In this document: positions 1 through 56,082 of the stretch, one piece after another
Layout: the number at the start of each line of letters is the position of its first letter
Numbering within the stretch: the first letter of the stretch is position 1
Virus record (IMG/VR): IMGVR_UViG_3300020182_000010
Coordinates: 91,153-155,152 of that record
Strand: one strand, 5' to 3'
Source of the DNA: a virus
DNA: 64,000 nucleotides
The notes under the pieces: generated by a model
Told to the model about the DNA's origin: nothing
Seen by the model: only the letters and a program-made list of their open reading frames with translations
The model's database searches: none
Made by a program: the position numbers and the translations under genes

Positions 1-178
1 GTTTTTTATTTAAGACTACTTCTCGTATATTATATTCATTGCCATGTAAAAATTCAGAGGTATGTAATACCCCCATCGCGGTTGGTTTATTTAACAATGT
101 CGAATAATGTTTTGCTAAACTGCGACTTGCAGTTCTTGGAAAACTGATTACCGCTATATTACAAATAGTGTTTGACAT
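1..178 (-). CDS. Partial (3'-truncated by window) sulfotransferase-like protein
   Basis: ATG at 178 reads MSNTICNIAVISFPRTASRSL..., open to window edge; PRTAS resembles the PAPS-binding 5'-PSB loop. Confidence 0.45.
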   Translation of the reverse strand, partial: MSNTICNIAVISFPRTASRSLAKHYSTLLNKPTAMGVLHTSEFLHGNEYNIREVVLNKK

Positions 179-179
179 A

Positions 180-908
180 TCATACATTTCCCGGTGATAC
201 GTTGTTTAAAATAAAAGAATCTACCGCATATTTTGCAAAATCTTCTCCGTAATGAAACGTATGTTTAGTAGAAAAATTGTTATCCTTCGCATAATTAGTA
301 TAGGCAAATGGTATGCTATTAAGTTTTAATATGCTTTTAGATTCTAGAATCCAAGACAAATCATTCCAATTTGAACTCAACGAATGACTTTTTTCTTCGT
401 CTGTGAGCATGGCATCTTCTATATCTGAAAACATAAACTTGCATGGTATGTTTTCATTGTCACAGAATGATTTTAATAATATTATATGTTGAAGTAAATC
501 TGTCTTATCTTGTATTGAATTTTGTATATATTCAAAATACCCAAGTGCTGCTGCATTGAAACCTCTACCCTGATTTAATTTTTCATACCATAAAGATAGT
601 GTAACTGGGTTATTAAGTGTTTTTAAAAACAATTCACGCCTATGTGAATATGTCATCATAAACACTGCGTTGGGTTTCTTGTTTTGTTGAATTAAGTTTT
701 TTATACCGATTATTGCTTTTCGTGTGATTAAATTGTTCGATGCTCCTGGTCTAGAATCGTTAATGACCGATACCCCCATCTGTTCTCCTAACAAAGCCGG
801 CCACGAAAATTTGCTGGTTTTGAAATTATCGACAAATGTATTACCCACATCATCCATTCCAAATCCTTGTGTATGAGAACAGCCACCTGCATATAAAATA
901 TTTTCCAT
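180..908 (-). CDS. SGNH/GDSL-like hydrolase-family phage protein
   Basis: GCSHTQG, SWPALL, PGASN and C-terminal HY motifs; start at 908 is coupled by TAATG to the upstream stop. Confidence 0.55.
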   Translation of the reverse strand: MENILYAGGCSHTQGFGMDDVGNTFVDNFKTSKFSWPALLGEQMGVSVINDSRPGASNNLITRKAIIGIKNLIQQNKKPNAVFMMTYSHRRELFLKTLNNPVTLSLWYEKLNQGRGFNAAALGYFEYIQNSIQDKTDLLQHIILLKSFCDNENIPCKFMFSDIEDAMLTDEEKSHSLSSNWNDLSWILESKSILKLNSIPFAYTNYAKDNNFSTKHTFHYGEDFAKYAVDSFILNNVSPGNV

Positions 909-1501
909 TAGATATTTATTGTTTTTCGCATATTTTCGCATAGTCTTATATCTTTAAGTGGTATGTTTGGAATTTCAAAATGTAAGCACAATCTATTTTC
1001 CGTAACATTTTTAACGCCGTGCCGTTTTGTAATGTTTAGAAATGTCGGAGAAGTTATTTGATACTCTCCGCCATCTTCATAATACGTGATTGATGACGAA
1101 ATCCCCCACAGAGGTATCATCAGAACCGTATTTTTTCTATATGGAAAATCTGAGTGTGTAGGCACATCTTCTCCTGCATGTTGAAGGAAAAATGAAACAT
1201 CACCAATAACGATGTCGTTGTCAATTTTTTCTGATAACTGTTTTATTATATTTGCAATTGTAGGATGAGTAGTGTCACACTTTGAAACAAAATCAGTACG
1301 CTTGTGTACTTTTTTTGTAATCGATTTTTTCAAATCTTTAATCGTATTACCGATTACGTTTATCCCTGTATTTTTACAGAATTCATCTTTGTGATTAATA
1401 TCAATATCATCAATATCATATGATCGCAGAGAGTTATAATAAGAAGTTAATACATCCACATCATAATCTAAATCTATGACTAGTACTTCACGATCATCCA
1501 T
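908..1501 (-). CDS. 2OG-Fe(II) oxygenase (DSBH fold)
   Basis: PTHSD (HxD), then RHGVKN and a downstream R. Confidence 0.65.
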   Translation of the reverse strand: MDDREVLVIDLDYDVDVLTSYYNSLRSYDIDDIDINHKDEFCKNTGINVIGNTIKDLKKSITKKVHKRTDFVSKCDTTHPTIANIIKQLSEKIDNDIVIGDVSFFLQHAGEDVPTHSDFPYRKNTVLMIPLWGISSSITYYEDGGEYQITSPTFLNITKRHGVKNVTENRLCLHFEIPNIPLKDIRLCENMRKTINI

Positions 1502-1570
1502 GAGGTAATTTATCCAAATTCTCTATCTCCATAGTAATTATATGTATTCAAAAAACTATATTCATATTTA

Positions 1571-2248
1571 TTATATTATAAACTGTGTTCGCCATAACAT
1601 ACGTTCACCCTCGAATGCTACTCTTTTATGGATCATTTTTAGATTGTCCCAGATTAATATCTCGTTATCCTGCCATTCATGCATATATGCATTTGCTTCT
1701 ACCCATTCTTTAATAGGACGTAAGTCTATTTCATTATTGCGCAATGTGTTTATACTACAATATAGTATATCTTCACCAGTGACATGATGCTTAATATTAA
1801 ATGGTCGCTTTATTTTTTGTTTCTCTAGTAATCGTAGTTGTCTATCAGTAAAACATTCGCCATGCAAATGTATAGGAGGGTAGTATTCACCTATAGAATC
1901 TTTATACAGTTCTCTAAGTTCAAGTGGTGCATTACTCATATTACAGAACCAAGTTGGTGAAAGATGAGCATTTTTTACATTGTACAATATTGTACCAAAG
2001 TAGTTTCCTCTACCATAACTCCAATCATTATGCCAGTCTACATCGCCGGTATTGAACAATCCATTATTACTTAACTCTTGCACAGTACGATTGTCATTAA
2101 TCACATGCTTGTCTGTGATTAATGGTTTTCCTAATTCACTGACAATATACTCGAAATCTGTTAATGTTATTGAACTATTTAATGAGACTTTCACAAGACC
2201 ATTCGTCATAAGATCCTGCTTGATGGTCTCTATATTCAATTGTTTCAT
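1571..2248 (-). CDS. TauD/TfdA-family dioxygenase
   Basis: WHND, HEWQDNEILIWDNLKMIHKR, RMLWR. Confidence 0.8.
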   Translation of the reverse strand: MKQLNIETIKQDLMTNGLVKVSLNSSITLTDFEYIVSELGKPLITDKHVINDNRTVQELSNNGLFNTGDVDWHNDWSYGRGNYFGTILYNVKNAHLSPTWFCNMSNAPLELRELYKDSIGEYYPPIHLHGECFTDRQLRLLEKQKIKRPFNIKHHVTGEDILYCSINTLRNNEIDLRPIKEWVEANAYMHEWQDNEILIWDNLKMIHKRVAFEGERMLWRTQFII

Positions 2249-3110
2249 CTACCTTTTCCTTTACTTCCTCGTCTCTATACCAAATACCTGCTCTCCACAA
2301 TTCGCGGTCGCCAGTATATGCTTCTCTTTTATGTAGACTGTGATGTTGGTCACTAAAACAGATATCATAATTATTCCATTCGTGTTCATACACATATTTT
2401 TCATCTTGTGTATGCTTTTTCAGTTTATAATATAAGTTATGCTGTGCATCTTTAGAAATTCCACTAAATCCTCGAATAACAGTCCAAGGAAAATATAGGC
2501 CTTCCTTATTATTGATAGGGTGAGTTGTGACTAAATCTTTTCTTGGTGTTTGTTTTTCGAAACTGTTTTGTCCATCTATATCTTTGAACTCCATCATAGT
2601 TTGTTCATCACTAAAAATTCTCTTGTAATACATTTGCTCAAGTTTCAACTTAGCATTATATGTTACGATTTTAGACTTTATGTTACGAAGAATGTCTTTT
2701 GTATTATCATCCAAATCTGCAAAAGCCGTTTGACTATCAGAGAAGAACGTATTTCCACCACTCTCTGCATTTTGATGCATGTACATAACTACAACATCAT
2801 CATGTCCCTTACGATTCATTCCAGCACTATGCCACTCTAATTCACCGTCTTCTTCACCGCTAAATAATCCATTTTTTCTAACTTTAATAAGTTCGCCATG
2901 TCCCGCGACATTTCCTTTGACTTTTGTATTTTGTGATACCACCTCACCAATTGTTTTATAAAATGATACTAGAGTTTCTGGTGGTACTGGATCATTATTT
3001 CTCACTACCACTACACGGCAATCACCTATTAGTTCTCTAATTTTATCTGCATCGTTTTCATAATCGCATTCAGTCACAATTGCTGCAAATTTATTTTTTT
3101 CTACAATCAT
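2175..3110 (-). CDS. TauD/TfdA-family Fe/2OG enzyme with HxA motif (candidate halogenase)
   Basis: WHSAG, GGNTFFSD, HP, HEW...SDQHHSLHKR, RELWR. Confidence 0.75.
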   Translation of the reverse strand: MIVEKNKFAAIVTECDYENDADKIRELIGDCRVVVVRNNDPVPPETLVSFYKTIGEVVSQNTKVKGNVAGHGELIKVRKNGLFSGEEDGELEWHSAGMNRKGHDDVVVMYMHQNAESGGNTFFSDSQTAFADLDDNTKDILRNIKSKIVTYNAKLKLEQMYYKRIFSDEQTMMEFKDIDGQNSFEKQTPRKDLVTTHPINNKEGLYFPWTVIRGFSGISKDAQHNLYYKLKKHTQDEKYVYEHEWNNYDICFSDQHHSLHKREAYTGDRELWRAGIWYRDEEVKEKVDETIEYRDHQAGSYDEWSCESLIK

Positions 3111-3663
3111 TTTTCACTCTTTCTAACCCTATATTTATACAGTCTTTCGTCAATGGAAGCCAAGTTATATTTTGTTCACAACTACTATCTCCGTTGCATA
3201 CATAAAACTGGTCTGTTTCCATGATCCAGTCTGGCCATTGCATTTTGTTGTGCAAGAAGTATTTAAATCCATTAATACCGAACTTACCTTCTCTACTCAT
3301 AAATGCATAATCAAATTTAAGATTGCCAACTAATTCTATCTGCTGTTCAATCATTTGTTTTGTATATTCAATATCGTTAACCGCAAATCTATAATCCGAA
3401 GATTTAATAAATCTATTTAGAACCCTACATCCATTTCCATAAAATTGTTTTCTATGTAAAACAGAAGAAAACCCCAATATTTTACCAGATTGCGTTTCAT
3501 ACGTTGATGCTCCAACCCAATCATCAATGTTTAACCGCTTCATTGTATAATTATATTTTAGATTGTCTTGAAAATTTGATTGTGTAATAAACTGTTTTAT
3601 GCTTTCAATATATGATTCCCAATTATTATCGGCAGAATTTATTGTTTTAATAGTTAAATTCAT
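3091..3663 (-). CDS. Hypothetical protein, possible GNAT fold
   Basis: ILGFSSV...RVLNRF...YR pattern; operonic overlaps with both neighbours. Confidence 0.4.
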   Translation of the reverse strand: MNLTIKTINSADNNWESYIESIKQFITQSNFQDNLKYNYTMKRLNIDDWVGASTYETQSGKILGFSSVLHRKQFYGNGCRVLNRFIKSSDYRFAVNDIEYTKQMIEQQIELVGNLKFDYAFMSREGKFGINGFKYFLHNKMQWPDWIMETDQFYVCNGDSSCEQNITWLPLTKDCINIGLERVKNDCRKK

Positions 3664-4582
3664 TTTGCTTCACATGTTCAAAGAATGGCGCAATTGTCCA
3701 ATTCTGAGTCAACCGTCCTCTACTAGTGTTATCATGATCAATAACACCGTCATCGTCAATTTCCCAATCAATTAATCTTACGTATACTGGTCCTGCTTGT
3801 GTTTCATACTCAAACATCCAGGATGAAAGAGTTTCACCACTTTGTGGTCCTGCCGCAACAACTCCCGCTGCAGTCTTATATATGTCTTTTTCATTAATAC
3901 CTAGTTGTAATTTTGCTATATCTTTAAGTTCTTGTATATTATATGAAGAATTTTCCATATATCTACCAATTTGTCCCACACTTTTCATTCGAAGTACGGG
4001 ACGAATTCTATTATATGGCGGAGTAGTATTAAAATCTATTCCACTATTGCAGGCTAGTTCACCAAATAATTCTATTTGTCTTTTTAATGTATGTTCGTTT
4101 ACATTTTTTGCAATGATTGTACCAGTGTTCACTGGCAGTCTCGCATCAAAAACATTTTTCAATGCTCTAACTTTTACCGTTGACCAATTGCCTTCATCTA
4201 ATACTTTGTATACATTATCATCATCTGCGCCGTTCATACTAAGCAATAGTAATCTGAGGCCTGCATCTTTTAGATTGGATGTGTAACTCTTATTTGCTAA
4301 CTTTAGTCCGTTGGTAGTTAGACTAGGGCGATGTCCTAATCTTTTTGTAGTTGCAATAATCTCACATATATCCTCTCTCATAGTAGGTTCTGCTCCTATT
4401 AATCTGATATAGGTACGAGCAGGTAATCGTTTGATAATGTCAAATAATTTATTTTTATCAATATCTGGAATATCACGATTTGGAATATAACAGTTAGCAC
4501 ACTCCATGTTACATCGATGAGTTAGATCAACTACAATGTTACTGAATGTATTATTTTCTGGTTCTAATTCGTAATAATTCAT
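3647..4582 (-). CDS. Radical SAM enzyme (MoaA-like core)
   Basis: CNMECANC (CxxxCxxC), GAEPT, TTNG. Confidence 0.9.
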   Translation of the reverse strand: MNYYELEPENNTFSNIVVDLTHRCNMECANCYIPNRDIPDIDKNKLFDIIKRLPARTYIRLIGAEPTMREDICEIIATTKRLGHRPSLTTNGLKLANKSYTSNLKDAGLRLLLLSMNGADDDNVYKVLDEGNWSTVKVRALKNVFDARLPVNTGTIIAKNVNEHTLKRQIELFGELACNSGIDFNTTPPYNRIRPVLRMKSVGQIGRYMENSSYNIQELKDIAKLQLGINEKDIYKTAAGVVAAGPQSGETLSSWMFEYETQAGPVYVRLIDWEIDDDGVIDHDNTSRGRLTQNWTIAPFFEHVKQNEFNY

Positions 4583-4918
4583 TTATGATTCAATTGATTT
4601 GTATTCTGCCTGTGTTATAGTCTCTATGTCACTTATTACTAAATATTCACCTAATGATTGTAATAACATTGTTAGATCATTATGCATATCAGATGCATGA
4701 GCCTTATATCGGTAGTAATTGGTCTGGAGCACATTGGAACCGTTATCTACTCTGGTAGATTTTCTATCACCACTAATGTCAAGCTCTTTTTCATCAGATA
4801 GCCGATATGTTATACTGGTGAATTGATCTGAACCAATTGTTTCTTCAAACCACGATAGATATTGATCATGGTTTTTTCCATCTGGGTAATCTATACTAAC
4901 TGTAAATTTATATGGCAT
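4583..4918 (-). CDS. Hypothetical 111-aa protein, first gene of the tailoring operon
   Basis: ORF with AAGGA RBS directly after a TATAAATA box. Confidence 0.7.
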   Translation of the reverse strand: MPYKFTVSIDYPDGKNHDQYLSWFEETIGSDQFTSITYRLSDEKELDISGDRKSTRVDNGSNVLQTNYYRYKAHASDMHNDLTMLLQSLGEYLVISDIETITQAEYKSIES

Positions 4919-4962: not shown

Positions 4963-4970
4963 TATTTATA
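4963..4970 (-). promoter_or_regulatory. T4-type late promoter TATAAATA
   Basis: Exact T4 late consensus, between a terminator and the operon start. Confidence 0.7.
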
Positions 4971-4990
4971 TAATTATATAATTAAGTAAA

Positions 4991-5017
4991 TTGGTCTGGG
5001 CAAATTGCCCAGACCAA
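4991..5017 (-). terminator. Intrinsic terminator hairpin
   Basis: TTGGTCTGGGCAA/TTGCCCAGACCAA perfect inverted repeat. Confidence 0.7.
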
Positions 5018-5374: not shown

Positions 5375-5400
5375 ATTGTTCTCCTTTGTGTGTGTGTGTT

Positions 5401-5667
5401 GTGTAACTATTCTGTTGCTAGGTCAGTTACCAACCCCCACGTGCTTAAATTAAGCCGCTAATGCCATTTCTGGCGCATAATTGTTATTTGCAATTATAAA
5501 GTTTATTCGCGGTAACGGCGCTTATATCCCGGTAACTCCATTCATCTATCTTGTCAGTCGATCCTATTTCAGCCCCATAAGAAACACACTTATCTAAATG
5601 TGCTTATGGTGGAGCTGCGCGGTACTGCCCCACGGTCCTGTCCAATCATCAAATCACTTCAACGTTA
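5401..5667 (-). ncRNA. ssrA: tmRNA, circularly permuted two-piece (alphaproteobacterial type)
   Basis: Acceptor piece ends CGTGG-GGCAGTA-CCGCG-CAGCTCCACCA (CCA at 5607); 30-nt spacer; coding piece starts GGGGCTG (5576) giving a G3:U70 pair; tag frame 5491-5450 reads ANNNYAPEMALAA*; outer ends are approximate. Confidence 0.95.
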
Positions 5668-5672
5668 CATTC

Positions 5673-5704
5673 TATTTATAACATATTTTGATAGTGTTGT
5701 CAAG
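5673..5704 (-). promoter_or_regulatory. Dual promoter for tmRNA: sigma70 TTGACA-17-TATAAA overlapping late TATAAATA
   Basis: cTTGACA acactatcaaaatatgt TATAAATA. Confidence 0.7.
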
Positions 5705-6278
5705 TGTTGAATTTATTTTTAATAATTTCAACTACTCTGTCAGATAGAACTATCTCATAATGGTTTCTATCTACTTCTGCATATTCTATATCATTACGAC
5801 AAGTCATACTTTTACGTGTGACAATGCCATCATTTTCACCTGATATCCATGGTACATCGCCAACTGTTGTGACTACCTGAAGCCAATTACACGAAATATC
5901 AATATTACGACTACCTCTGATAAATCTACTATGTGTTGTAATGTCACTAAACATTTCATATCCAGAAAAGAATTTCATTGTTGCTCCCCAAACCGCAATC
6001 TCACTGCCATTAAATGGTGTTGCTAAACTAACAACATTTTTTATTGTATCAAATTCACTTTGTAAATATGTTGCATATACACCACCAAGACTATGTGCTA
6101 TTACAAAAAATTCATCATCTATATCATTCAAAGTTTTCATCATTATAGCAAGATTATCAACTGCCGCTGTATGTTTACTATAATTTAAATATATAGGATC
6201 TTTACAATCCAAAGATTTCTGAATGAAGGCGAAACTTCTTTCACTAGCAGTTGCCCCATGTATATACACTATTCTCAT
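5700..6278 (-). CDS. Alpha/beta hydrolase
   Basis: YIHG, AHSLGG nucleophile elbow, ATPFNGS, NDGIV, NH. Confidence 0.85.
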   Translation of the reverse strand: MRIVYIHGATASERSFAFIQKSLDCKDPIYLNYSKHTAAVDNLAIMMKTLNDIDDEFFVIAHSLGGVYATYLQSEFDTIKNVVSLATPFNGSEIAVWGATMKFFSGYEMFSDITTHSRFIRGSRNIDISCNWLQVVTTVGDVPWISGENDGIVTRKSMTCRNDIEYAEVDRNHYEIVLSDRVVEIIKNKFNT

Positions 6279-6282
6279 TCAT

Positions 6283-6978
6283 TCAAGTCCTGACGCTGTT
6301 GTGCTTGCGATCCATAAACATCTTTGCTGTTTCAACTGCTACTGCTGCATCTCTACAATACGCATCTGCACCAATTGCTTTTCCAAATTCTTCATTTAGT
6401 GGTGCGCCGCCTACTAGTATTGTATAATCATCACGCATACCTTTTTCAATCATTACATCAATAACAACCTTCATATATGGCATTGTTGTTGTAAGTAATG
6501 CACTCATACCTAATATATCTGGATTATGTTCTTCGATTGCATCAAGATAAGCCTGAACATCGTTATTAATACCAATATCGTGTACATCAAATCCTGCACC
6601 TTCCATCATCATGCCAACTAAGTTCTTACCAATGTCATGTATATCACCTTTAACTGTGCCGATAACCATAGTTCCAACTTGTGGTGCGCCTGTTTCCGCA
6701 AGTAGAGGTTTAAGAATTGACATACCGCCTTTCATAGCGTTTGCTGCCAGTAGCACTTCAGGCACAAACAATATGCCATCTCTGAAGTCGATGCCAACAA
6801 TTGTCATACCAGCAACTAAAGATTCTGTTAGTACACGATATGGTTCCCATCCTCGCTCTAATAGAATATTTGTGCCTTCTTCTACCTCTTCTTTTAGACC
6901 ATCATACAAATCATCGCCCATTTGAATTACTAATTCTTCATCATTTAATTCAGAGAGTACAATATTATCATCTTCCAT
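6283..6978 (-). CDS. Stand-alone cobalamin-binding corrinoid protein (cap + B12 domain; MtbC/split MetH-like)
   Basis: GDIHDIGKNLV (DxHxxG), SALLTTT, VGGAP, GADAY; FVPEVL cap domain. Confidence 0.92.
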   Translation of the reverse strand: MEDDNIVLSELNDEELVIQMGDDLYDGLKEEVEEGTNILLERGWEPYRVLTESLVAGMTIVGIDFRDGILFVPEVLLAANAMKGGMSILKPLLAETGAPQVGTMVIGTVKGDIHDIGKNLVGMMMEGAGFDVHDIGINNDVQAYLDAIEEHNPDILGMSALLTTTMPYMKVVIDVMIEKGMRDDYTILVGGAPLNEEFGKAIGADAYCRDAAVAVETAKMFMDRKHNSVRT

Positions 6979-7009
6979 TATTCTTCTCACTTGTATAGGT
7001 TAACATATC

Positions 7010-7074: not shown

Positions 7075-7848
7075 TTAGAATGAAAAACTTAGTGTAACTG
7101 ATGGTGTTACTGTTTCATCATCTACATTATAATTAACATCTGTTTCTACACTGGCACCAGACCAATCAAATTCATGTCCTACGCCGACGTTTTCTAGTAA
7201 ATCGTCTTCGTCACCATTAATATATGTTGTTAAACCATATGTACTAACAGTAGAATCTAATTCATATGCTAATGTATCTGTTTCATATGATACAGTTGTA
7301 CCAAGTGCAACACCTGTAACTTCTGCCGTATCAACCCGTGCACCCCAAGTATATTCTTCAGATGTGCGATTGTAATCCATAGATGCCGTTACATCTACAA
7401 CTGCTAAATCAACATTATATGCAAGTTGTACATTTGACACTTCGGTAATGTCAGTTGTAATATCAGTAAAACCAACTGCTACAGCGGCTGGACCGTATGA
7501 TAATATCACTGATTCATCAATAGTTGGTACTGCAACTGATGAAAAGTCTGATGTTGCTTCTACAAAAATACCGTCTTGGTCACCCAATGATACTGTTGTA
7601 CCTAAAACTTCTGTTCCAACATGCCATTTATCTAGTGCAATTGTGGCACTATCAACTGATTCAAACTCTAGTCCAACGTTTGCTGCACCTTCGCCTGCTG
7701 CAACATCAATACCGATTGTAGTTGTTGCTTCGTACTTATCTGTTGCTTTATTTTCAGCAACTTTCATTTCCACAGAAGCATCAACATCTGCAGCAAATGA
7801 AGTCGTAGCCATTAAAATAGCGGCTACTGTTGTTAGTAATAGTTTCAT
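7075..7848 (-). CDS. Porin-like outer-membrane beta-barrel protein
   Basis: Signal peptide (...TSFA), acidic alternating beta-strands, C-terminal LSFSF BAM signal. Confidence 0.75.
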   Translation of the reverse strand: MKLLLTTVAAILMATTSFAADVDASVEMKVAENKATDKYEATTTIGIDVAAGEGAANVGLEFESVDSATIALDKWHVGTEVLGTTVSLGDQDGIFVEATSDFSSVAVPTIDESVILSYGPAAVAVGFTDITTDITEVSNVQLAYNVDLAVVDVTASMDYNRTSEEYTWGARVDTAEVTGVALGTTVSYETDTLAYELDSTVSTYGLTTYINGDEDDLLENVGVGHEFDWSGASVETDVNYNVDDETVTPSVTLSFSF

Positions 7849-8238: not shown

Positions 8239-8390
8239 TCAGATTTCCAGATAGTCCATATACCATATGCAATTGCTGCATATGCAATTAAATCAACTGG
8301 TACAATGAGCATTGCAATTCCAGTTGCAACTAGTGCTGCACCGTCGAGTGTTGTACGTTCTTTTAGTCTATTTTTAATCCAATTAATCAT
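8235..8390 (-). CDS. Small membrane protein (51 aa, not in ORF track)
   Basis: MINWIKNRLKERTTLDGAALVATGIAMLIVPVDLIAYAAIAYGIWTIWKSE; AAGGAG RBS. Confidence 0.75.
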   Translation of the reverse strand: MINWIKNRLKERTTLDGAALVATGIAMLIVPVDLIAYAAIAYGIWTIWKSE

Positions 8391-9312
8391 TTTTTTTCTC
8401 CTTTAATAATTTATTATAAAACAGTTCTTCATCTGGACAATTATTATGTTCAATTTGAATAGTTGTATGTACTATTTTATAATTATCGATTAATAGTTTC
8501 TTGGTATTATATATTGTATCATCACATTCGCCATCATCCAATATATTGATGTGCATAGCGGCTGAAATTTGTCCGCTTGCTAATTCCCATATATGTATAT
8601 GGTGAACATTACTAACATGATCGATATTTGTTATAATATCTTTTACTATAACATCAACATCAATATGTTCTGGTTTTCCAGTCATTAGTATTCTAATACA
8701 ATCTTTTAATAATTCCCAACCACTTTTTAATATCAAACTGGCCAGAACTACACTTATAATAGGATCAATATAATACCAATCAGTAAAATATATTACGATA
8801 CCACCTATAATGGCACCAACACTGCCTAAAATATCAAGTAAGATATGAAGTATCACTCCTCGCATATTAATATTATGACCATCATGGTGATGATGCACCA
8901 CTTTAAATAAAACCAAATTAACGATTAATCCAACAATAGCAATTGGTAACATCCAATATATATCAACATGCTCAGGATTTAGTATACGATAAATTGCTTC
9001 GTATATAATATATCCAAAAAGTCCAATCCACATCAGTGCATTTAAAAATGCTGCAATAACTTCCGCTCTCATAAATCCATATGAATATGTATCTGTTGGT
9101 GGTTTTCTGCCAATCCAAAATCCAAATACTGCAATAATCATTGCTAATGCATCAGTTGAAAGATGTAATGCATCACTCAATAACGCAAGTGAATTACTTA
9201 TATGTGCACCAAATAATTCGATAACAACAAATAATATTAAAATAAAAATGCTTATTTTTAATGCACGTTCTTCTTTGCCGGCTTTTCTGATATGATATTG
9301 ATTATGCTTCAT
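8383..9312 (-). CDS. Cation diffusion facilitator (CzcD/ZitB-like Zn/Co/Cd exporter)
   Basis: SLALLSDALHLSTD, YGFMRAE, His-rich loop, HILLD, HHIHIW, HTTIQIE. Confidence 0.92.
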   Translation of the reverse strand: MKHNQYHIRKAGKEERALKISIFILILFVVIELFGAHISNSLALLSDALHLSTDALAMIIAVFGFWIGRKPPTDTYSYGFMRAEVIAAFLNALMWIGLFGYIIYEAIYRILNPEHVDIYWMLPIAIVGLIVNLVLFKVVHHHHDGHNINMRGVILHILLDILGSVGAIIGGIVIYFTDWYYIDPIISVVLASLILKSGWELLKDCIRILMTGKPEHIDVDVIVKDIITNIDHVSNVHHIHIWELASGQISAAMHINILDDGECDDTIYNTKKLLIDNYKIVHTTIQIEHNNCPDEELFYNKLLKEKKND

Positions 9313-10226
9313 AAATTTTTCATCTTTGTATTATACAATTCTCTAATACCGTTTTCTATACTAATAGTTGGATTCCAACCAATAAGTTTTGTTGCTTTGG
9401 ATATGTCAGCAAGTGTTTCAGTTGCGTAACCTTTGGGTTTATCTTGATTCTCTACTTCTAAATTAGGAAAAAACTCACGTAAAACATTAACAACTTGATT
9501 TACAGAAAAATTTTCACCAGTTCCAACATTAAAAATCTCACTCTTTACTTTAGATTCCATACTTGCAATACATGCATGTGCAACATCACTAACATGAATA
9601 TAATCTCTTCTATATTCACCATCACCGTGAACTGTTAATGGTGTATTTTCATTAGCCATACGATAAAATCTACTGATCATCAATCCATTATTATCGTCTG
9701 ATGGTTGTTCATCACCATATATGGTAAAAAAACGTAATACATTATAATTTAGTCCAAAGACGTTTTTATATTGTTTACATAATTGTTCGCCAAATAATTT
9801 AGTCATTGCATAATAATTTAATGGATCCGGTTTATGAAATGGTTTATGTGGTATAGGATTATTCCCATATATACTTGATGAACTAGCATAAACAAATTTA
9901 CGAATACCTACAGCATGTGCGGCAGTTAATACGTTACGTGTACCAGTAACATTAATGTCAAAGTAAGTATCAGGATCAATAAAACTATCCGGTATTCGGG
10001 TCTTTGCTGCTAGATGTATAACATAATCTTTTCCGGCAGTTGCCATTACACACTTAGCTGCATTTTGTATATCACCTTTAATATACTTTACCATTTTAAA
10101 ATCAGTAGGCTTTTCTACAATATCTAAAACAGTTACTTCGTAACCTTTTCTTAGTAATTGTCTGACAACTTCTCTGCCTACGAAACCAGCGCCGCCAGTG
10201 ACAAGAACTTTACCTTTTGCTAACAT
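9309..10226 (-). CDS. NAD-dependent nucleotide-sugar epimerase/dehydratase
   Basis: TGGAGFVG, HLAA, SSSSIYG, YAMTK (YxxxK), RDYIHVSD. Confidence 0.92.
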   Translation of the reverse strand: MLAKGKVLVTGGAGFVGREVVRQLLRKGYEVTVLDIVEKPTDFKMVKYIKGDIQNAAKCVMATAGKDYVIHLAAKTRIPDSFIDPDTYFDINVTGTRNVLTAAHAVGIRKFVYASSSSIYGNNPIPHKPFHKPDPLNYYAMTKLFGEQLCKQYKNVFGLNYNVLRFFTIYGDEQPSDDNNGLMISRFYRMANENTPLTVHGDGEYRRDYIHVSDVAHACIASMESKVKSEIFNVGTGENFSVNQVVNVLREFFPNLEVENQDKPKGYATETLADISKATKLIGWNPTISIENGIRELYNTKMKNL

Positions 10227-18726: not shown

Positions 18727-20922
18727 TTACATTGACCATCTTTTTATAGTGTAACTAATTTCTGTAGTATAAGTTGCATTTTGTTCAAAATAAATTTTTA
18801 AATTATCGCCTTTTTCTGCGGATGCTGATAAAGTTGAATTACTCAAATCATTTAGCATTGCGGTATAATTCCATAATGGATCAGCAGATGAAATTATAAC
18901 ATCGTCGCCATCCTGTTTAGTATCGCCTATGATACCAGTTGTATTCATTACAGTTTCAAACCAATTATTGATTGCTGTCTCATTTTGATTTGCAACACGT
19001 ATAACATTTTCTATCATAACATCAAAAGAAATATTTGAAAATTCTACTTCCGGCGCAACTGGTGCTGCAGGAACTGCAGGTGGAGTAGGGTATAATGGAT
19101 TCGGATACATTTCTGCTATATTATCAGTATTTAAATCCTGCCATAATTCAGTACTTTCATCTGTTAATTTAACTTGATTTACACCATGTGGGTAACCATT
19201 AATTATTTTTATTGTACCAGTACGAAGAAATAAATTTCCTTCTACTGTACTTTCTTGCTTTAATGAATAATTAATAAAAAATGCACTGCATAGTTCAGAA
19301 TGATATTTTAAGAATGTATCTGATGTTGTTTCAAATGTTTTCTTAAATAAACTAGAACGTTTGCCGCTATGATGGGAATGCGATGATAGATGTTGATCTG
19401 CAAACATTTGATTATATGTATTCTCTGTCAATACTTCTACATTTCGGCGAGACCGTGCATAATATGGAGCAACAAATTCTGGAACGTCAACATAACCAAC
19501 ATTTGTAGTATCAGCATAACTAATATCTGATGGGATACCAACCAATGACTTTGTATAATAATATGCGCGGTGTGTGTTGCTATAATCATATAGTGTGAAA
19601 TCATTTGAGCCTGCTTGATCTTTTTCTTTAATATACAATGTGGCAAGTCCAACTTCAGATGTTTCAGGTTCTGCATATGTTAACTGATAGTCAAGTGTAT
19701 TCTGAACTGCAATATTCTCAGTTCTATAGACTGGTAGAGTAGTATCATCGTATCTGTAATAATTATTGATTTCATCCAATGACATTGTTGCCAAATCTGA
19801 ATTAGCAGGTAGACTTGCAATTCTAGGTGATAGTAAATCAAATTCAGATAATACAAGTGATAATCCGTTTTGTAAATCTCTACTATAGTCTATATAATAG
19901 TCATTATTTACAAGTGCTGATCCATCACTTCTAAGATTTGGTGTTGAAAGTGGAGTTGCATCTAAATCCTGTGTTTCAATATCAGTTGTATGGAATTGAA
20001 AATCTTGTGTACCGTTACCAAGTTGTTGCCAAACAGTATCTTGTTTATACCAATATGTAACTCTATCTGGTCCAGTAATCACTGCAACATCGCCACCTAA
20101 TCCAAGAGCATTGTCTGGTGAATTTGTTGTATAATCTATGTTTGCGTTCAAAGGATGATAATTAAGAATATGGTCAATAACCTCAGATGCCCATTCAGAA
20201 CCATCCCACTTGAATAATCCAAAATTAGACTTACTCATATAAGTTGAATTATCGTTAGGAGAAATAATTTGTGCTGGCATAGCATCATTATGCCTCATAT
20301 ATAATGAAGTTATAGTTATATCTTTTACTGGATCATATGATTTAGATGTTACGACACCGTGTGTATAATCTTCAACGCCAATAACTTCTAATACTTCTCC
20401 GGTGCCATCTAACGGACCAAGGGCAAGTGATGTAAACTGTACATTAATATCATTTGATACGGCACCCATGGTTCTATACTCTGTGTTGCCAATCTTTTTT
20501 ATAATATATGTTTTTCCAGCATCAATTTCAGAAGATGGTATTCTATGATTATCATATTTGTATTCTTTTAGATATACCGTTTCACCAACTGTAAAATTCA
20601 CATTGCCTTTCCATTCTACATTTTCTAAATAAAAATGCATTGCGCCAATTAAAGCATCAACATCTTGAACATTTCTTATTACTAAATCTTCGTCAACTTT
20701 CAGACCAGGTTCTGGATTATCATTACTATCTAACCAAGTTTGTATAACTGCGTGTGCGTTTGCGAATGCATCAAATTGAACTTCATTAATTGATTCATCA
20801 ATACCGACGAATAATTGGTTGGTATCTGTGGTGAAGCCCATTTCACCAGTTTCTAATGTATCAACGCCTATTTCCTCACGGAGGCCGCGTCTTAGTAGAA
20901 TTTTTACGTTTGTTATTGCCAT
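18727..20922 (-). CDS. Virion structural/fibre protein with Mtd-N-like N-terminus
   Basis: KILLRRG...LETGEMGFTTDTNQLFVG; late GATAAATA at 20947-20954. Confidence 0.7.
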   Translation of the reverse strand: MAITNVKILLRRGLREEIGVDTLETGEMGFTTDTNQLFVGIDESINEVQFDAFANAHAVIQTWLDSNDNPEPGLKVDEDLVIRNVQDVDALIGAMHFYLENVEWKGNVNFTVGETVYLKEYKYDNHRIPSSEIDAGKTYIIKKIGNTEYRTMGAVSNDINVQFTSLALGPLDGTGEVLEVIGVEDYTHGVVTSKSYDPVKDITITSLYMRHNDAMPAQIISPNDNSTYMSKSNFGLFKWDGSEWASEVIDHILNYHPLNANIDYTTNSPDNALGLGGDVAVITGPDRVTYWYKQDTVWQQLGNGTQDFQFHTTDIETQDLDATPLSTPNLRSDGSALVNNDYYIDYSRDLQNGLSLVLSEFDLLSPRIASLPANSDLATMSLDEINNYYRYDDTTLPVYRTENIAVQNTLDYQLTYAEPETSEVGLATLYIKEKDQAGSNDFTLYDYSNTHRAYYYTKSLVGIPSDISYADTTNVGYVDVPEFVAPYYARSRRNVEVLTENTYNQMFADQHLSSHSHHSGKRSSLFKKTFETTSDTFLKYHSELCSAFFINYSLKQESTVEGNLFLRTGTIKIINGYPHGVNQVKLTDESTELWQDLNTDNIAEMYPNPLYPTPPAVPAAPVAPEVEFSNISFDVMIENVIRVANQNETAINNWFETVMNTTGIIGDTKQDGDDVIISSADPLWNYTAMLNDLSNSTLSASAEKGDNLKIYFEQNATYTTEISYTIKRWSM

Positions 20923-30620: not shown

Positions 30621-32039
30621 TCAAGTTTCGTCAAAAGCCGATCTAGTTTTAGTTTTCAACATTGCACGGAGAGAACTCGCTGCCTGTGTTTTTTCGAAAA
30701 CAGGAGTATCATCATCTGACTTATTTAGAGTTGTTTTCTTTCTAAGTTGATCAACAACACTAGAGGGGGCACCGCTATTGCTTGGTGTGCCTGCACCAGT
30801 GCTATCTTGGTCTGGATCATCTGATATACGTAAACTGTCTCTATCAAATAATAAACTTACTTTACTGCCGACACCAGATGATGAACGTGTTTTTAATAGT
30901 TGTAATTGATATTGTCCACGTTCACGCATAGCATTCGATGTAAAAATACCAATCACATTATCAGCAGTTTGAATTTTACTAATGCCACCAGCAATATGAG
31001 AATGATCAAATTCAATTTCTTCAACTGCACTACGATTTAATTGTGATGCAGTTACAGTAACAGTCTGTGTTTCCATAGAAAAGTTACGCATTTCTTCTGT
31101 AACATATTTGTCTTTGGTAAAGGTGTCACCTGCTTGTACTTTTTTAGTTGCCGGCATTAACAAATCTAGATAGTCAATGCACATGCAATCTACTGTTTTG
31201 CCAGTTTGTATCTGAAGTTCTTTCAAGTAAGACCGTAGATCATTGATTGTTGAACCACTCGGAAGATACTTTATACGTAGCATACCGGACTGTTTGCCTT
31301 TCGCTTTAACTTGTAGTTCAACATCATCTAAGTCTTTAAAAATGCGTCTAGTACTGCGGTCCGTCTGCATTGCATACATACGCATACTTGAAAGTTCCTC
31401 GGATAACTCCAATGTGAAGTAGACACAATTCAACCCAGCCTCCGCCCAATTCAGGCTCATATTTTGCATAAAAAGGGATTTACCTGCTCCGGAGCCACCT
31501 GCAAAAATCGTAATCTCCCCACGATTAATGCCACCATATAGCTTATCATCAAGAGATTTCCAACCAGTGGTAATCTGACCATTGTTGTCTTTCATCCGTT
31601 CAAGCACACCTCTGGGATCAGCAAAATAATCTGTTCCCAAACTACGTGCCAGTCCAATTTGAACAGCCTCTTTGATTCTAAGTTCTACTTCACCATACTT
31701 GCCAGTCTCAAGTAAATCTGTGCTATCGATAATAGCCTTCTCAATAGCCTTGTGACGGCAAAATGTCTCAAACTCATCCACAAACCATTCTTCGTGCTGG
31801 GTTATGTTTTCCAACTTCTCAATGTCTTGTCCTGTTTCTGCTTTAATAATTGCAGGATCTGGTAGTGTAGAATAGTCTTCACTATAATCAATAAGTTGTT
31901 TGACCACAGGACGGACACTGCGGTCGAAATATTCAGGCTTGATAATCCCTCTGATCCTAGTATATAGTTCAGGATTAGTCACCATGAATTGAATGAATAG
32001 TTTTTGTAAGTCTGGGCTATAATTTTTTACTTCTGACAT
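30621..32039 (-). CDS. gp41: Replicative DnaB-like helicase (T4 gp41)
   Basis: GGSGAGKS, TLELSE, IDYLDL, TASQLNR, KTRSS. Confidence 0.93.
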   Translation of the reverse strand: MSEVKNYSPDLQKLFIQFMVTNPELYTRIRGIIKPEYFDRSVRPVVKQLIDYSEDYSTLPDPAIIKAETGQDIEKLENITQHEEWFVDEFETFCRHKAIEKAIIDSTDLLETGKYGEVELRIKEAVQIGLARSLGTDYFADPRGVLERMKDNNGQITTGWKSLDDKLYGGINRGEITIFAGGSGAGKSLFMQNMSLNWAEAGLNCVYFTLELSEELSSMRMYAMQTDRSTRRIFKDLDDVELQVKAKGKQSGMLRIKYLPSGSTINDLRSYLKELQIQTGKTVDCMCIDYLDLLMPATKKVQAGDTFTKDKYVTEEMRNFSMETQTVTVTASQLNRSAVEEIEFDHSHIAGGISKIQTADNVIGIFTSNAMRERGQYQLQLLKTRSSSGVGSKVSLLFDRDSLRISDDPDQDSTGAGTPSNSGAPSSVVDQLRKKTTLNKSDDDTPVFEKTQAASSLRAMLKTKTRSAFDET

Positions 32040-45905: not shown

Positions 45906-47036
45906 TTAAAGTGACATGCCACCAAATGTATTCTTATCAACATCTTGTTTGACACCACCAACTACATATGATGAAATTTCAGTCTCTTGAGGCGCAACTT
46001 GAACTTCTGCGCCAGCGATCCACTTTTGTGTCCATGGCAGAGGATTTGCTTGAGGTGTTGTATACGGACATTTTAAACCTACAGCCGTCATACGTTTACA
46101 ACAAATCCATTCAATATAATCACTTAACAATTGTGTGTTTAGACCAATCATTGACCCATCTTTGAATAGATAATTTGCCCATGCTTTTTCTTGCTCGACT
46201 GCATCAACAAACATTTGAATACACTCTGCTTCTGTTTCTTTGGCAATTTGGATATAGTCTGGATCATCTTTTGGCAGAAGTTTTAGAAGTGTTTGTGTTG
46301 AACCCAAATGTAGATTTTCATCACGGGCAATCAATTTAATAATTTTAGCATTACCTTCCATCTTCTTCAATTCTGCGAATGCCCAAGAACATGCAAATGA
46401 AACATAAAAGCGAACACCCTCAAGAATGTTGACACTCATAAGTGTTTTGTAAAGTAATTTCTTAATTTCATACTTATCAATAACAACTTCATTGCCATTA
46501 ACAGTATGGGTACCTTCACCCAATAGATTGAAATATGAGGTCATATCAATTAGTTGGTCATAGCATTCTGAAATATCATCAGCACATTCCATGATTTCTT
46601 CAATATCCATCATACCATCAAATACTTTTGATGGGTCAGAATATACATTACGAATGATGTGAGTGTATGAACGCGAATGAATTGTTTCACTGAATGTCCA
46701 AGTTTGAATCCATGCTTCTAGTTCTGGAATAGTTACCAGCGGTCCGAATGCCTCTACTGGAGCACGACCTTGTACACTATCTAACAGAATTTGACGCTTT
46801 AGATTTGATGTAAAAATATGACGTTCATTGTCTGTAAGATTCTTAAAATCGTTTGAATCTTTAGTTACATCAACTTCTTCTGGACGCCAAAAGAACCCAA
46901 GTTGTTTGTCTGTTAGTTTGTCAAACTGCTTATACTTTAACATATCATAACGTTGAATAGCAACGCTGCCTGCAGGATCCATGAAGGCCAATGCTTTAGT
47001 ATGATCTGTCTTATTCTGTGAATTAAATACACTCAT
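45906..47036 (-). CDS. nrdB: Ribonucleotide reductase class Ia beta subunit
   Basis: FFWRPEEV, ETIHSRSY, LEGVRFY, RDENLH, APQETEISSY. Confidence 0.97.
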   Translation of the reverse strand: MSVFNSQNKTDHTKALAFMDPAGSVAIQRYDMLKYKQFDKLTDKQLGFFWRPEEVDVTKDSNDFKNLTDNERHIFTSNLKRQILLDSVQGRAPVEAFGPLVTIPELEAWIQTWTFSETIHSRSYTHIIRNVYSDPSKVFDGMMDIEEIMECADDISECYDQLIDMTSYFNLLGEGTHTVNGNEVVIDKYEIKKLLYKTLMSVNILEGVRFYVSFACSWAFAELKKMEGNAKIIKLIARDENLHLGSTQTLLKLLPKDDPDYIQIAKETEAECIQMFVDAVEQEKAWANYLFKDGSMIGLNTQLLSDYIEWICCKRMTAVGLKCPYTTPQANPLPWTQKWIAGAEVQVAPQETEISSYVVGGVKQDVDKNTFGGMSL

Positions 47037-47051
47037 TTTATATACCCTTAT

Positions 47052-56017: not shown

Positions 56018-56058
56018 AATAATTATATACTCACTTAATTTATATATGTATTTAGCAC

Positions 56059-56082
56059 AAAAAAGCATCCCCTGAGGGATGC
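56059..56082 (-). terminator. Intrinsic terminator
   Basis: GCATCCC-TCAG-GGGATGC followed by a T run on the minus strand. Confidence 0.7.

What the first reader, a model, noticed from the sequence alone, without database searches (positions are those of the whole stretch)
2175..3110. Phage TauD-fold enzyme with the HxA halogenase signature, paired with a normal HxD paralogue
Seen: the first iron-ligand motif is W-H-S-A-G (2821-2834 region), while the distal His (SLHKR) and the 2OG-binding R..R are retained. The adjacent TauD (1571-2248) keeps canonical W-H-N-D. Established: in Fe(II)/2OG halogenases such as SyrB2, CytC3, WelO5 and BesD, the HxD/E carboxylate is replaced by Ala or Gly to open a halide site. 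Inference: this is a halogenase/hydroxylase pair acting on a shared substrate. I know of a phage flavin-dependent halogenase (VirX1) but not of a characterised phage Fe/2OG halogenase.
Basis: partly seen in the sequence, partly recalled or inferred. Interest (0 to 1): 0.8.

Follow-up and report, generated by a model that had tools for sequence, protein, structure and literature searches.

The report
Phage TauD enzyme lacking carboxylate ligand
An uncultured marine jumbo phage encodes an iron/2-oxoglutarate enzyme whose usual acidic iron ligand is always alanine, as in chlorinating enzymes. This makes it a credible but untested candidate for the first viral enzyme of that kind.

Summary
ORF 2175-3110 (-) is a full TauD/TfdA-fold protein (Pfam 109 bits; AF2 pLDDT 87.5; Z 27 to TauD, PlaO1 and AtsK). 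W-H-S-A-G lies at 2834-2820, and Ala96 aligns with Asp101 of E. coli TauD. The other catalytic positions are intact: His94, His260, Thr121, Arg269 and Arg273.

Ala96 is invariant in 73 homologues of 49-88% identity and in viral loci down to 39%. Its codon changes only synonymously (GCT/GCA/GCC), so Ala is under selection.

The gene sits in a syntenic four-gene module: radical SAM, GNAT-fold protein, TauD(HxA), TauD(HxD). The module occurs in 19 of 25 IMG/VR loci. I found it in no cultured phage and no close relative in GTDB species genomes. RNA-library contigs cover it.

Two caveats weaken the halogenase reading:
- More distant relatives carry Asn, Asp, Glu, His or Gly at this position (HxN is commonest), so carboxylate loss is common in this branch.
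- AspH shows that a two-His 2OG enzyme can be a plain hydroxylase.

No halide test was possible. Halogenase about 0.4; water- or substrate-ligated oxygenase about 0.33. The 111-aa neighbour is not part of the module. First readers of this scan noted the same motif in at least four other genomes; none was followed up.

The parts
2175..3110 (-). TauD/TfdA-fold Fe(II)/2OG enzyme, 311 aa, with H94-x-A96...H260 (here TauD_A). The C-terminal tail 286-311 is low-confidence and specific to close relatives.
   Evidence: Pfam PF02668 E 5e-31, 109 bits. AF2 pLDDT 87.5. VIA Z 26-27 to PlaO1, TauD and AtsK. 73 homologues.
2820..2834 (-). W93-H94-S95-A96-G97. The first iron-ligand motif, with Ala (GCT, 2825..2823) in place of the Asp/Glu ligand.
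   Evidence: Sequence read. Aligned to WHSD of TfdA and WHTD of E. coli TauD. Invariant, with only synonymous codon change in related loci.
2292..2333 (-). Distal His260 (2333..2331), Arg269 (2306..2304, 2OG C5-carboxylate Arg) and Arg273 (2294..2292, substrate-anion Arg).
   Evidence: phmmer alignment to TfdA. H-to-R spacing compared with TauD H255/R266/R270. 97% or more conserved in all three residue groups for H260 and R269, and 85-100% for R273.
2748..2750 (-). Thr121, equivalent to TauD Thr126 (2OG carboxylate contact).
   Evidence: hhalign GGNT/GGDT. 96-98% conserved.
1571..2248 (-). Short TauD paralogue, 225 aa, with the canonical H73-x-D75...H207 triad (TauD_D). It always lies downstream of TauD_A, in a few loci with one gene between.
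   Evidence: Pfam PF02668 E 8e-15. Triad and both Arg invariant in 18 orthologues. Synteny.
3091..3663 (-). GNAT-fold protein, 190 aa, always between the radical SAM gene and TauD_A.
   Evidence: No Pfam or PHROG hit. AF2 pLDDT 90. Foldseek prob 1.0 to many GNAT acetyltransferases, TM 0.5-0.6. Invariant R80, R84, K87, R92 and FMSR 121-124.
3647..4582 (-). Radical SAM enzyme, 311 aa, with CxxxCxxC at residues 24-31. First conserved gene of the module and its most conserved member.
   Evidence: Pfam PF04055 E 1e-14. Weak core-domain hits to TrsS, MoaA and Tes models, all below cut-off. 49-73% identity in 30 related loci.
4583..4918 (-). 111-aa ORF, first gene after the putative promoter. Not part of the conserved module.
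   Evidence: No family hit. No tblastn homologue in any of the related loci.
4963..5017 (-). 12-bp GC-rich hairpin (5017..4991) followed by TATAAATA (4970..4963), 45 nt upstream of the 111-aa ORF. Possible terminator plus T4-type late promoter that starts the operon.
   Evidence: The TATAAATA count in the window is not above chance (9 against 13 expected), so only the position supports it.
908..1501 (-). 197-aa ORF with an H-x-D...H pattern (T-H-S-D, R-H-G). A likely small cupin or 2OG oxygenase, present in some related loci.
   Evidence: Sequence. Homologues in L017, L021 and L026. No Pfam hit.
180..941 (-). 253-aa ORF with a weak DUF6071 match, possibly SGNH-like. A downstream member of the island.
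   Evidence: Pfam E 0.0098, below cut-off. Not followed further.
2..187 (-). Start of a 151-aa ORF that runs off the window. It is frequently syntenic after TauD_D. The island continues in the genome with three more small H-x-D...H proteins, an AspH-like hydroxylase, an APS-kinase-like protein, a nucleotidyltransferase-like protein and a ferredoxin.
   Evidence: L010 ORFs and Pfam. Synteny of u151, u199 and u169.

Best explanation
TauD_A is a catalytically competent Fe(II)/2-oxoglutarate enzyme of the TauD/TfdA fold. It holds iron with only two protein ligands, His94 and His260. The third facial-triad position is an invariant Ala, which leaves a coordination site for an exogenous anion.

The best-precedented use of such a site is radical halogenation. 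Cl- or Br-, abundant in a marine host, binds iron. 2OG and O2 then give a cis-halo-oxo-Fe(IV) species, which abstracts an aliphatic H. The halogen rebounds instead of OH.

The substrate is probably a small anionic molecule. It would be held by Arg273 and Gln60 (the TauD R270 and H70 positions) and Glu90 (the TauD N95 position). It would be made or N-acylated by the co-transcribed radical SAM and GNAT-fold enzymes, and then hydroxylated or further processed by the HxD paralogue.

Shown here: the fold, the ligand replacement, retention of the remaining Fe/2OG residues, selection on Ala, the conserved four-gene module, and a distribution restricted to viral and metagenomic sequences.

Inferred: halide binding, halogen transfer, the nature of the substrate and the order of steps.
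For: - Ala96 aligns with the Asp ligand of TfdA and TauD.
- H94, H260, T121, R269 and R273 are retained at 96% or more in the clade.
- Ala is invariant in 73 homologues and in every viral locus down to 39% identity. Codons are GCT x15, GCA x13 and GCC x3, each one step from Asp, Glu or Gly codons.
- No clade-specific carboxylate or His stands in as a replacement. Glu90 and His257 also occur in relatives that have HxD, HxE or HxN.
- A sister sub-branch (P0087, P0121) has HxE with the same downstream (M/Q)-N-R. This resembles the natural hydroxylase/halogenase switches of other families.
- The model has a high-confidence TauD fold.
- The module radical SAM-GNAT-TauD_A-TauD_D is syntenic in 19 of 25 IMG/VR loci and in all 7 ENA loci fetched for close homologues.
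- Contigs from RNA libraries of 3 studies cover the gene, one of them from a DNase-treated library.
- HxA/G is the motif used to annotate non-heme iron halogenases (PMC13519999).
Against: - No test of halide binding or halide dependence was possible, and model coordinates could not be inspected.
- In the wider branch the position is Asn in 63 of 133 representatives and flips repeatedly among N, D, A, E, H, G and C. Loss of the carboxylate is therefore not tied to one chemistry here.
- AspH has the same two-His arrangement, hydroxylates, and does not halogenate (PMC13168262).
- No known halogenase appears among sequence matches to solved structures, even at E <= 10, or among the listed structural matches.
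- The Pfam scans of neighbours gave no carrier-protein or dehalogenase hit.
- The authors of the halogenase pipeline warn that the short HxA/G motif gives false positives.
Confidence: 0.4

Rival explanations
1. Two-His oxygenase of the AspH type. The vacant site is filled by a water or hydroxide, or by a donor group of the substrate itself (carboxylate, sulfate, phosphate or hydroxyl). The enzyme hydroxylates, desaturates or cleaves its substrate without any halide. On this reading Ala is kept for steric or charge reasons, for example to avoid repelling an anionic substrate.
For: AspH is a functional two-His Fe/2OG hydroxylase that does not halogenate (PMC13168262). The wider branch tolerates N, D, A, E, H and G at this site with all other catalytic residues kept, including HxN in the cultured Pelagibacter phage Mosig. 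Clade-specific Arg100, Arg213 and Gln60, plus Arg273, suggest a strongly anionic substrate. AspH-family genes lie in the same islands. The nearest solved relatives are all oxygenases.
Against: A relaxed or merely permissive site would be expected to vary (G, S, N, D) within a family as divergent as 39-88% identity. Instead Ala is invariant, with synonymous change only. No clade-specific second-sphere carboxylate that could hold a water, as D721 does in AspH, was identified by sequence.
Confidence: 0.33
2. The same open coordination site is used for a non-halide anion or for unusual chemistry, such as transfer of another iron-bound group, or ring closure or elimination after H abstraction. Halogenation would then be at most cryptic.
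For: Known Fe/2OG halogenases accept azide and nitrite at this site (Matthews et al. 2014, cited in PMC13168262). The module is embedded in islands rich in radical SAM, sulfotransferase-like, APS-kinase-like and carbamoyltransferase genes, which points to unusual small-molecule chemistry.
Against: No natural Fe/2OG enzyme that transfers a non-halide anion is known to me, and nothing in the sequence points to a particular anion.
Confidence: 0.1
3. Non-catalytic or regulatory paralogue. TauD_A has lost iron-dependent catalysis and serves as a substrate-binding or structural partner of the HxD enzyme.
For: It always accompanies an intact HxD paralogue. TauD-family enzymes are oligomers (established knowledge).
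Against: Both His ligands, the 2OG Thr and Arg, and the substrate Arg are conserved at 96% or more, which a pseudoenzyme has no reason to keep. HxA copies also occur without the HxD partner (L032, L034, L036).
Confidence: 0.07
4. A different protein residue completes the triad in three dimensions, for example His257 to give a three-His site, or Glu90. The enzyme would then be an ordinary hydroxylase with a relocated ligand.
For: His257 lies three residues before the distal His, in the loop 255-259, and is 97% conserved in the clade. Glu90 is 96% conserved.
Against: Both residues are also present in near relatives that carry HxD, HxE or HxN (Q-x-H-S-L-H in P0086, P0087, P0088, P0082 and P0093; G-E-L-E-W-H-S-D in bacterial TauDs). 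They therefore did not arise as replacements. Glu90 aligns with TauD Asn95, a substrate-contact position.
Confidence: 0.05

Closest known systems
E. coli TauD, TfdA/AAD-2, RdpA/AAD-1, AtsK, PlaO1 (TauD/TfdA-type Fe(II)/2OG dioxygenases)
   Same: Same fold (Z 24-27, rmsd 2-3 A over 230-258 residues) and same Pfam family. Same positions for the proximal and distal His, the 2OG Thr and Arg, and the substrate-anion Arg.
   Different: Only 14-21% identity. The carboxylate ligand (TauD Asp101) is Ala. The substrate-contact positions differ (Gln60 for His70, Glu90 for Asn95). The family was found only in viral and metagenomic sequences.
SyrB2 / CytC3 / CmaB (carrier-protein-dependent Fe/2OG halogenases, HxA)
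   Same: His-x-Ala in place of His-x-Asp, with the distal His and 2OG binding retained. Ala rather than Gly.
   Different: No detectable sequence relation (none at E <= 10 in the search of solved-structure sequences). Pfam found no carrier protein or NRPS in the neighbours scanned. A different branch of the superfamily (from memory: SyrB2 is PhyH-like).
BesD / HalB and AdeV(AdaV) (Fe/2OG halogenases of free amino acids and of nucleotides, HxG)
   Same: Stand-alone enzymes acting on free small polar substrates. BesD binds halide together with a charged substrate (bioRxiv 10.1101/2023.05.02.539147 abstract). AdaV acts in halogenated-nucleoside biosynthesis (PMC12766721).
   Different: They have Gly, not Ala. 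They were not among the matches listed. They are bacterial natural-product enzymes, not viral.
Human AspH (two-His Fe/2OG hydroxylase)
   Same: Iron held by two His only. The site normally taken by Asp/Glu is open and in AspH holds a water (PMC13168262).
   Different: AspH belongs to another Pfam family (PF05118). It acts on EGF-domain proteins and uses a second-sphere Asp to hold the water. TauD_A does not match PF05118.
VirX1 (cyanophage flavin-dependent halogenase)
   Same: The only characterised phage halogenase known to me. Also marine.
   Different: A flavin-dependent electrophilic halogenase of aromatic carbons, with unrelated fold and chemistry.
TauD-like protein of Pelagibacter phage Mosig EXVC030M (Mosig_00075)
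   Same: The only match among deposited phage genomes (27% identity). It lies in a similar island with a MoaA-like radical SAM, a GNAT and two AspH-like genes. It also lacks the carboxylate.
   Different: Its motif is W-H-S-N-G (HxN), not HxA. Its neighbours differ.

Membership tests
TauD/TfdA family Fe(II)/2OG dioxygenases (PF02668) | Profile match above the curated cut-off | tested here: met
   109 bits against a cut-off of 27, profile positions 25-266 of 267.
TauD/TfdA family Fe(II)/2OG dioxygenases (PF02668) | Double-stranded beta-helix fold superposable on TauD | tested here: met
   AF2 pLDDT 87.5. Z 26.4, rmsd 3.1 A over 258 residues to 6edh (TauD). Z 27.1 to PlaO1.
TauD/TfdA family Fe(II)/2OG dioxygenases (PF02668) | [quoted passage not shown] | tested here: not met
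   H94-x-A96...H260. Ala aligns with Asp of TfdA and TauD and is invariant in the family. The protein is a member by fold and descent but lacks this catalytic hallmark.
TauD/TfdA family Fe(II)/2OG dioxygenases (PF02668) | 2OG-binding Thr and Arg | tested here: met
   T121 = TauD T126. R269 = TfdA/TauD 2OG Arg. Both 96% or more conserved.
Fe(II)/2OG radical halogenases (functional class) | Carboxylate ligand replaced by Ala or Gly and conserved across the family | tested here: met
   Ala in 73 of 73 homologues and in 31 of 31 locus copies at 39% identity or more, with synonymous codon change only.
Fe(II)/2OG radical halogenases (functional class) | Both His ligands and 2OG binding retained | tested here: met
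Fe(II)/2OG radical halogenases (functional class) | Halide coordinated to iron; halide-dependent formation of a C-Cl or C-Br product | not testable with these tools
   This needs biochemistry or a structure. Model coordinates are not exposed and halide is not among the ligands offered.
Fe(II)/2OG radical halogenases (functional class) | Descent from a known halogenase clade (SyrB2-, WelO5-, BesD-, AdeV- or DAH-type) | tested here: inconclusive
   None appears among 37 sequence matches at E <= 10 or among the listed structural matches. Absence from a list does not exclude distant relation, and halogenases have arisen several times independently.
Fe(II)/2OG radical halogenases (functional class) | No alternative protein ligand near the vacated site | tested here: inconclusive
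   By sequence, the only conserved candidates (Glu90, His257) also occur with HxD/E/N in relatives. Distances in the model could not be measured.
AspH-type two-His hydroxylases (PF05118) | Match to the Asp_Arg_Hydrox profile | tested here: not met
   TauD_A matches only PF02668. PF05118 proteins are separate genes of the island.
AspH-type two-His hydroxylases (PF05118) | Iron bound by two His, with a water at the third site held by a second-sphere acid | tested here: inconclusive
   The two-His arrangement is met. No clade-specific second-sphere acid could be placed without coordinates.

The most novel reading that the evidence does not exclude
This is the first virus-encoded Fe(II)/2OG radical halogenase and the first within the TauD/TfdA branch proper. 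It would define a family found so far only in viral and metagenomic sequences and widespread in marine T4-like and jumbo phages. Together with a radical SAM enzyme, a GNAT-fold acyltransferase and an HxD hydroxylase, it would make a chlorinated or brominated small molecule during infection, possibly a modified sugar, nucleotide or N-acyl amine.
Probability: 0.35. Interest if true: 0.85.

Novelty: new variant of a known kind. Interest (0 to 1): 0.62.

Why it matters
Fe/2OG halogenases are rare. They are prized as biocatalysts for C(sp3)-H halogenation, and all known ones come from bacterial, cyanobacterial or plant natural-product pathways.

A halogenase family found only in viruses would be a new source of such enzymes and would extend them to a new branch of the fold. 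Near-identical DNA of this phage occurs in marine and estuarine metagenomes of at least 8 studies between 2014 and 2025. The family would also imply that phages make halogenated metabolites in infected marine cells, which is unexplored viral chemistry.

If the enzyme is instead a two-His oxygenase, it is still useful. Together with the many HxN relatives, it gives a natural series (D, E, N, A, H, G at one ligand position on one scaffold) for asking what the third ligand does in 2OG oxygenases.

The conserved four-gene module is small enough to express and test directly.

Tried and rejected
- DNA (megablast) and protein (tblastn) searches of 50,697 deposited phage genomes found no close homologue of TauD_A or of the radical SAM gene. 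At E <= 1 the only hit was the HxN TauD of Pelagibacter phage Mosig.
- PHROGs gave nothing for either TauD.
- A scan of one genome per GTDB species gave at best 28% identity and no HxA copy. An apparent HxA in a Rhodospirillaceae MAG (L043) was a gap artefact of my tblastn parsing; the protein reads W-H-S-D-Q.
- The bacterial HxN relative P0082 (Bdellovibrio-like MAG) does not share the phage module. tblastn of its neighbours found only a B12-radical-SAM similarity.
- The 111-aa protein was rejected as a module member or carrier because it has no homologues.
- Model coordinates are not exposed, so the requested check for a nearby Asp or Glu could only be done by sequence.
- Literature searches for a phage or viral Fe/2OG halogenase, for the module, and for HxN 2OG oxygenases returned nothing relevant.
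- The ESM Atlas feature searches returned only unnamed viral clusters for the GNAT-fold protein, with a weak Acetyltransf_1 lead, and only viral radical SAM clusters.
- Sigma-70 promoter-like sites are not above shuffles, and TATAAATA is not enriched in the window.
- RNA-library evidence consists of assembled contigs only. It shows presence, not strand, level or proof of transcription.
Full report
**Observation**

The ORF at 2175..3110 on the minus strand encodes 311 residues. The minus-strand sequence 2846..2811 reads G-E-L-E-W-H-S-A-G-M-N-R. W93-H94-S95-A96-G97 therefore occupies 2834..2820, and the Ala codon GCT lies at 2825..2823. Further on come H-H-S-L-H260-K-R and G-D-R269-E-L-W-R273. 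The neighbour at 1571..2248 (-) has W-H-N-D and a matching distal motif.

**What the protein is**

- It matches Pfam TauD (PF02668) at 109 bits against a cut-off of 27, over almost the whole profile.
- An AlphaFold2 model built on 73 homologues has mean pLDDT 87.5. Only the last 26 residues are disordered.
- Foldseek and VIA-align place the model with TauD, PlaO1, AtsK, RdpA/AAD-1, TfdA/AAD-2 and ScoE/Rv0097 (Z 24-27, rmsd 2-3 A over 230-258 residues).
- phmmer aligns WHSA with WHSD of TfdA.
- hhalign against E. coli TauD (tauD taken from NC_000913.3) gives these equivalences: H94 = H99, A96 = D101, T121 = T126, H260 = H255, E90 = N95, Q60 = H70.
- From the TfdA alignment and the R-x-x-x-R spacing, R269 is the 2OG C5-carboxylate Arg (TauD R266). 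R273 is the Arg that binds the anionic group of the prime substrate (TauD R270).
- The roles of the TauD residues are established knowledge recalled from the TauD literature, not tested here.
- In short, every part of a working Fe/2OG site is present except the carboxylate ligand.

**Is the Ala meaningful?**

- The word-indexed search of 5.8 billion proteins gave 73 homologues of 49-88% identity. H94 and A96 are among only 27 invariant columns.
- In 31 gene copies from IMG/VR and ENA contigs, down to 39% identity, the residue is always Ala. Its codon is GCT (15), GCA (13) or GCC (3). All the change is synonymous, although every one of these codons is one step from Asp, Glu or Gly. This is purifying selection on Ala, not decay.
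- I looked for a conserved acidic or His residue that could replace the lost ligand. The clade-conserved candidates are Glu90 and His257.
- Both also occur in relatives that still have HxD, HxE or HxN: Q-x-H-S-L-H in P0086, P0087, P0088 and P0082, and G-E-L-E-W-H-S-D in bacterial TauDs. They therefore did not arise as substitutes.
- I could not measure distances, because model coordinates are not exposed.

**Wider family**

- An exhaustive profile search of 1.84 billion representatives found 1,681 relatives, but only 20 at E <= 1e-30.
- In a MAFFT alignment and FastTree of 133 full-length representatives, canonical HxD TauDs are basal.
- A large derived branch is mostly HxN (63 of 133) with repeated flips to HxD.
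- The target clade is HxA, with one HxC member and a sister sub-branch with HxE (P0087, P0121) that keeps the downstream (M/Q)-N-R.
- A second, independent small HxA group exists (P0092, P0137, P0196).
- This cuts both ways. The A/E alternation among close relatives resembles the natural hydroxylase/halogenase switches of other families. But this branch has abandoned the carboxylate many times, mostly for Asn, so its loss cannot be equated with halogenation.
- The HxN type is also phage-borne. The only hit among 50,697 deposited phage genomes is the W-H-S-N-G protein of Pelagibacter phage Mosig, in an island with a MoaA-like radical SAM, a GNAT and two AspH-like genes.

**Context**

- The window is part of a 155-kb IMG/VR record that CheckV rates 42% complete. 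Its TerL is 55% identical to that of Pseudomonas jumbo phage PA5oct.
- The window carries an alphaproteobacterial permuted tmRNA (Rfam, 126 bits). The phage is thus a marine jumbo phage, and the tmRNA type suggests an alphaproteobacterial host.
- TauD_A lies in a run of overlapping minus-strand genes that starts after a hairpin and a TATAAATA box.
- In order, the genes are a 111-aa ORF, a radical SAM enzyme (3647..4582), a 190-aa protein (3091..3663), TauD_A, TauD_D and a 197-aa H-x-D...H protein. A 253-aa protein follows.
- Beyond the window edge the run continues with a 151-aa protein and three more small H-x-D...H proteins. Next come a convergent AspH-like gene, an APS-kinase-like protein, a nucleotidyltransferase-like protein and a ferredoxin.
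- The 190-aa protein has no family hit, but its model (pLDDT 90) is a GNAT fold.
- tblastn of all island proteins against 37 related loci shows that the order radical SAM, GNAT-fold, TauD_A, TauD_D is kept in 19 of 25 IMG/VR loci and in all 7 ENA loci fetched for close homologues.
- In those loci the radical SAM gene is 49-73% identical, TauD_A 48-79% and TauD_D 47-71%. The 151-, 199- and 169-aa genes are frequent followers.
- The 111-aa ORF has no homologue anywhere in these loci, so it is not part of the module.
- TauD_D keeps H73, D75, H207, R216 and R220 invariant.
- Divergent HxA copies (W-H-N-A) occur outside the module, directly after a family-B DNA polymerase gene. In L034 the next genes encode a cytidylyltransferase-like protein, a phosphomannomutase-like protein and an NAD epimerase/dehydratase.
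- In L003 the module follows HAD, nucleotidyltransferase and carbamoyltransferase genes. Nucleotide-sugar or nucleotide-type enzymes are therefore recurrent neighbours.
- No homologue above 28% identity, and none with HxA, was found in one genome per GTDB species.
- Near-identical DNA is present in marine and estuarine metagenomes of at least 8 studies from 2014 to 2025. Assembled contigs from RNA libraries of three studies cover the module. One is a 4,726-nt contig with no mismatch over 134..4859, and another set comes from a DNase-treated library. This shows presence in RNA libraries, not proof of transcription.

**How it most likely works**

TauD_A is almost certainly an active iron/2OG enzyme with a two-His site and one open coordination position that selection keeps open with Ala.

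- **Halogenation (confidence 0.4).** The best-precedented use of such a site is halide binding and radical halogenation, in a host bathed in 0.5 M chloride. The substrate pocket has Arg273 and Gln60 for an anion, Glu90, and clade-specific Arg100 and Arg213. This fits a small, strongly anionic, probably amine- or hydroxyl-bearing molecule. The GNAT-fold partner suggests N-acylation. The HxD paralogue would hydroxylate the same scaffold.
- **AspH-type oxygenase (0.33).** Water or the substrate fills the site. Support comes from AspH itself (PMC13168262), from the prevalence of HxN relatives, and from the fact that all nearest solved relatives are oxygenases.
- **Lesser rivals.** Use of the site for another anion or other chemistry (0.1), a non-catalytic partner (0.07, contradicted by the conserved catalytic residues) and a relocated protein ligand (0.05).

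**Comparison and novelty**

- By fold and descent this is a TauD/TfdA protein that fails the facial-triad criterion.
- It meets the two sequence criteria used to annotate Fe/2OG halogenases: HxA/G, with the other ligands retained (PMC13519999). The authors of that pipeline warn of false positives.
- It is not detectably related to SyrB2-, WelO5-, BesD- or AdeV-type enzymes (inconclusive).
- Full-text searches found no described viral Fe/2OG halogenase and no description of this module.
- First readers of this scan flagged the same motif and module in at least four other genomes. None was followed up, and these notes are not independent evidence.
- I rate it a new variant of a known kind. It is well supported as a conserved two-His TauD family found only in viral and metagenomic sequences. 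It is plausible but unproven as a halogenase.

Noticed in passing
window 5400-5707 (-): Phage-encoded alphaproteobacterial permuted (two-piece) tmRNA. Rfam alpha_tmRNA 126 bits and tmRNA_permuted 113 bits; ARAGORN tag ANNNYAPEMALAA. It points to an alphaproteobacterial host. Contig depth in the RNA libraries is highest over this stretch.
   Followed up: partly
window 6283-6990 (-): Stand-alone corrinoid (B12-binding) protein. Best NCBIfam hit is the glycine-betaine corrinoid protein MtgC (E 2e-57, below the equivalog cut-off). The neighbouring ORFs (7075-7848, 8383-10226) were not scanned, so I do not know whether a methyltransferase partner is present.
   Followed up: partly
window 18727-20922 (-): 731-aa protein with an N-terminal Mtd_N (major tropism determinant) domain. 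It may be a receptor-binding protein. I did not check for a diversity-generating retroelement.
   Followed up: no
window 57226-63945 (-): Giant ORF of 2,239 aa or more, running to the window end. Not examined.
   Followed up: no
L041 (Pelagibacter phage Mosig EXVC030M, MT647606.1 51511-62074): A cultured pelagiphage carries an HxN (W-H-S-N-G) TauD-like gene. Its island also has a MoaA-like radical SAM, a nitroreductase, two AspH-like genes, a desaturase, an aminotransferase, a methylase and a GNAT, next to tail-fibre genes. This is an accessible system for learning what these islands do.
   Followed up: partly
L057 (Logan SRR26502663 contig, 36.9 kb): The HxE sister of the HxA clade (P0087) lies in a run of about ten radical SAM genes, plus an AMP-binding fragment and a 2OG-FeII_Oxy gene. 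This is an unusually radical-SAM-dense island.
   Followed up: no
Representative set P0074-P0221: A large, mostly metagenomic branch of TauD-like proteins has Asn at the carboxylate-ligand position (63 of 133 representatives), with all other catalytic residues kept and repeated N/D flips. I found no literature on an HxN Fe/2OG site.
   Followed up: partly
L032 4375-6199 and L034 6959-7840: Divergent HxA copies (W-H-N-A). L032 has a tandem pair. In both loci they sit directly after a family-B DNA polymerase gene. In L034 the next genes are cytidylyltransferase-like, phosphomannomutase-like and NAD epimerase/dehydratase genes, with no radical SAM/GNAT module.
   Followed up: partly
window 45906-49343 (-), 30621-32039 (-), 50561-51673 (-), 54458-56068 (-): Ordinary phage replication and packaging genes: class I ribonucleotide reductase large and small subunits, a DnaB-like helicase, a RecA/UvsX-like recombinase, and a T4-type large terminase 55% identical to that of Pseudomonas jumbo phage PA5oct.
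   Followed up: partly
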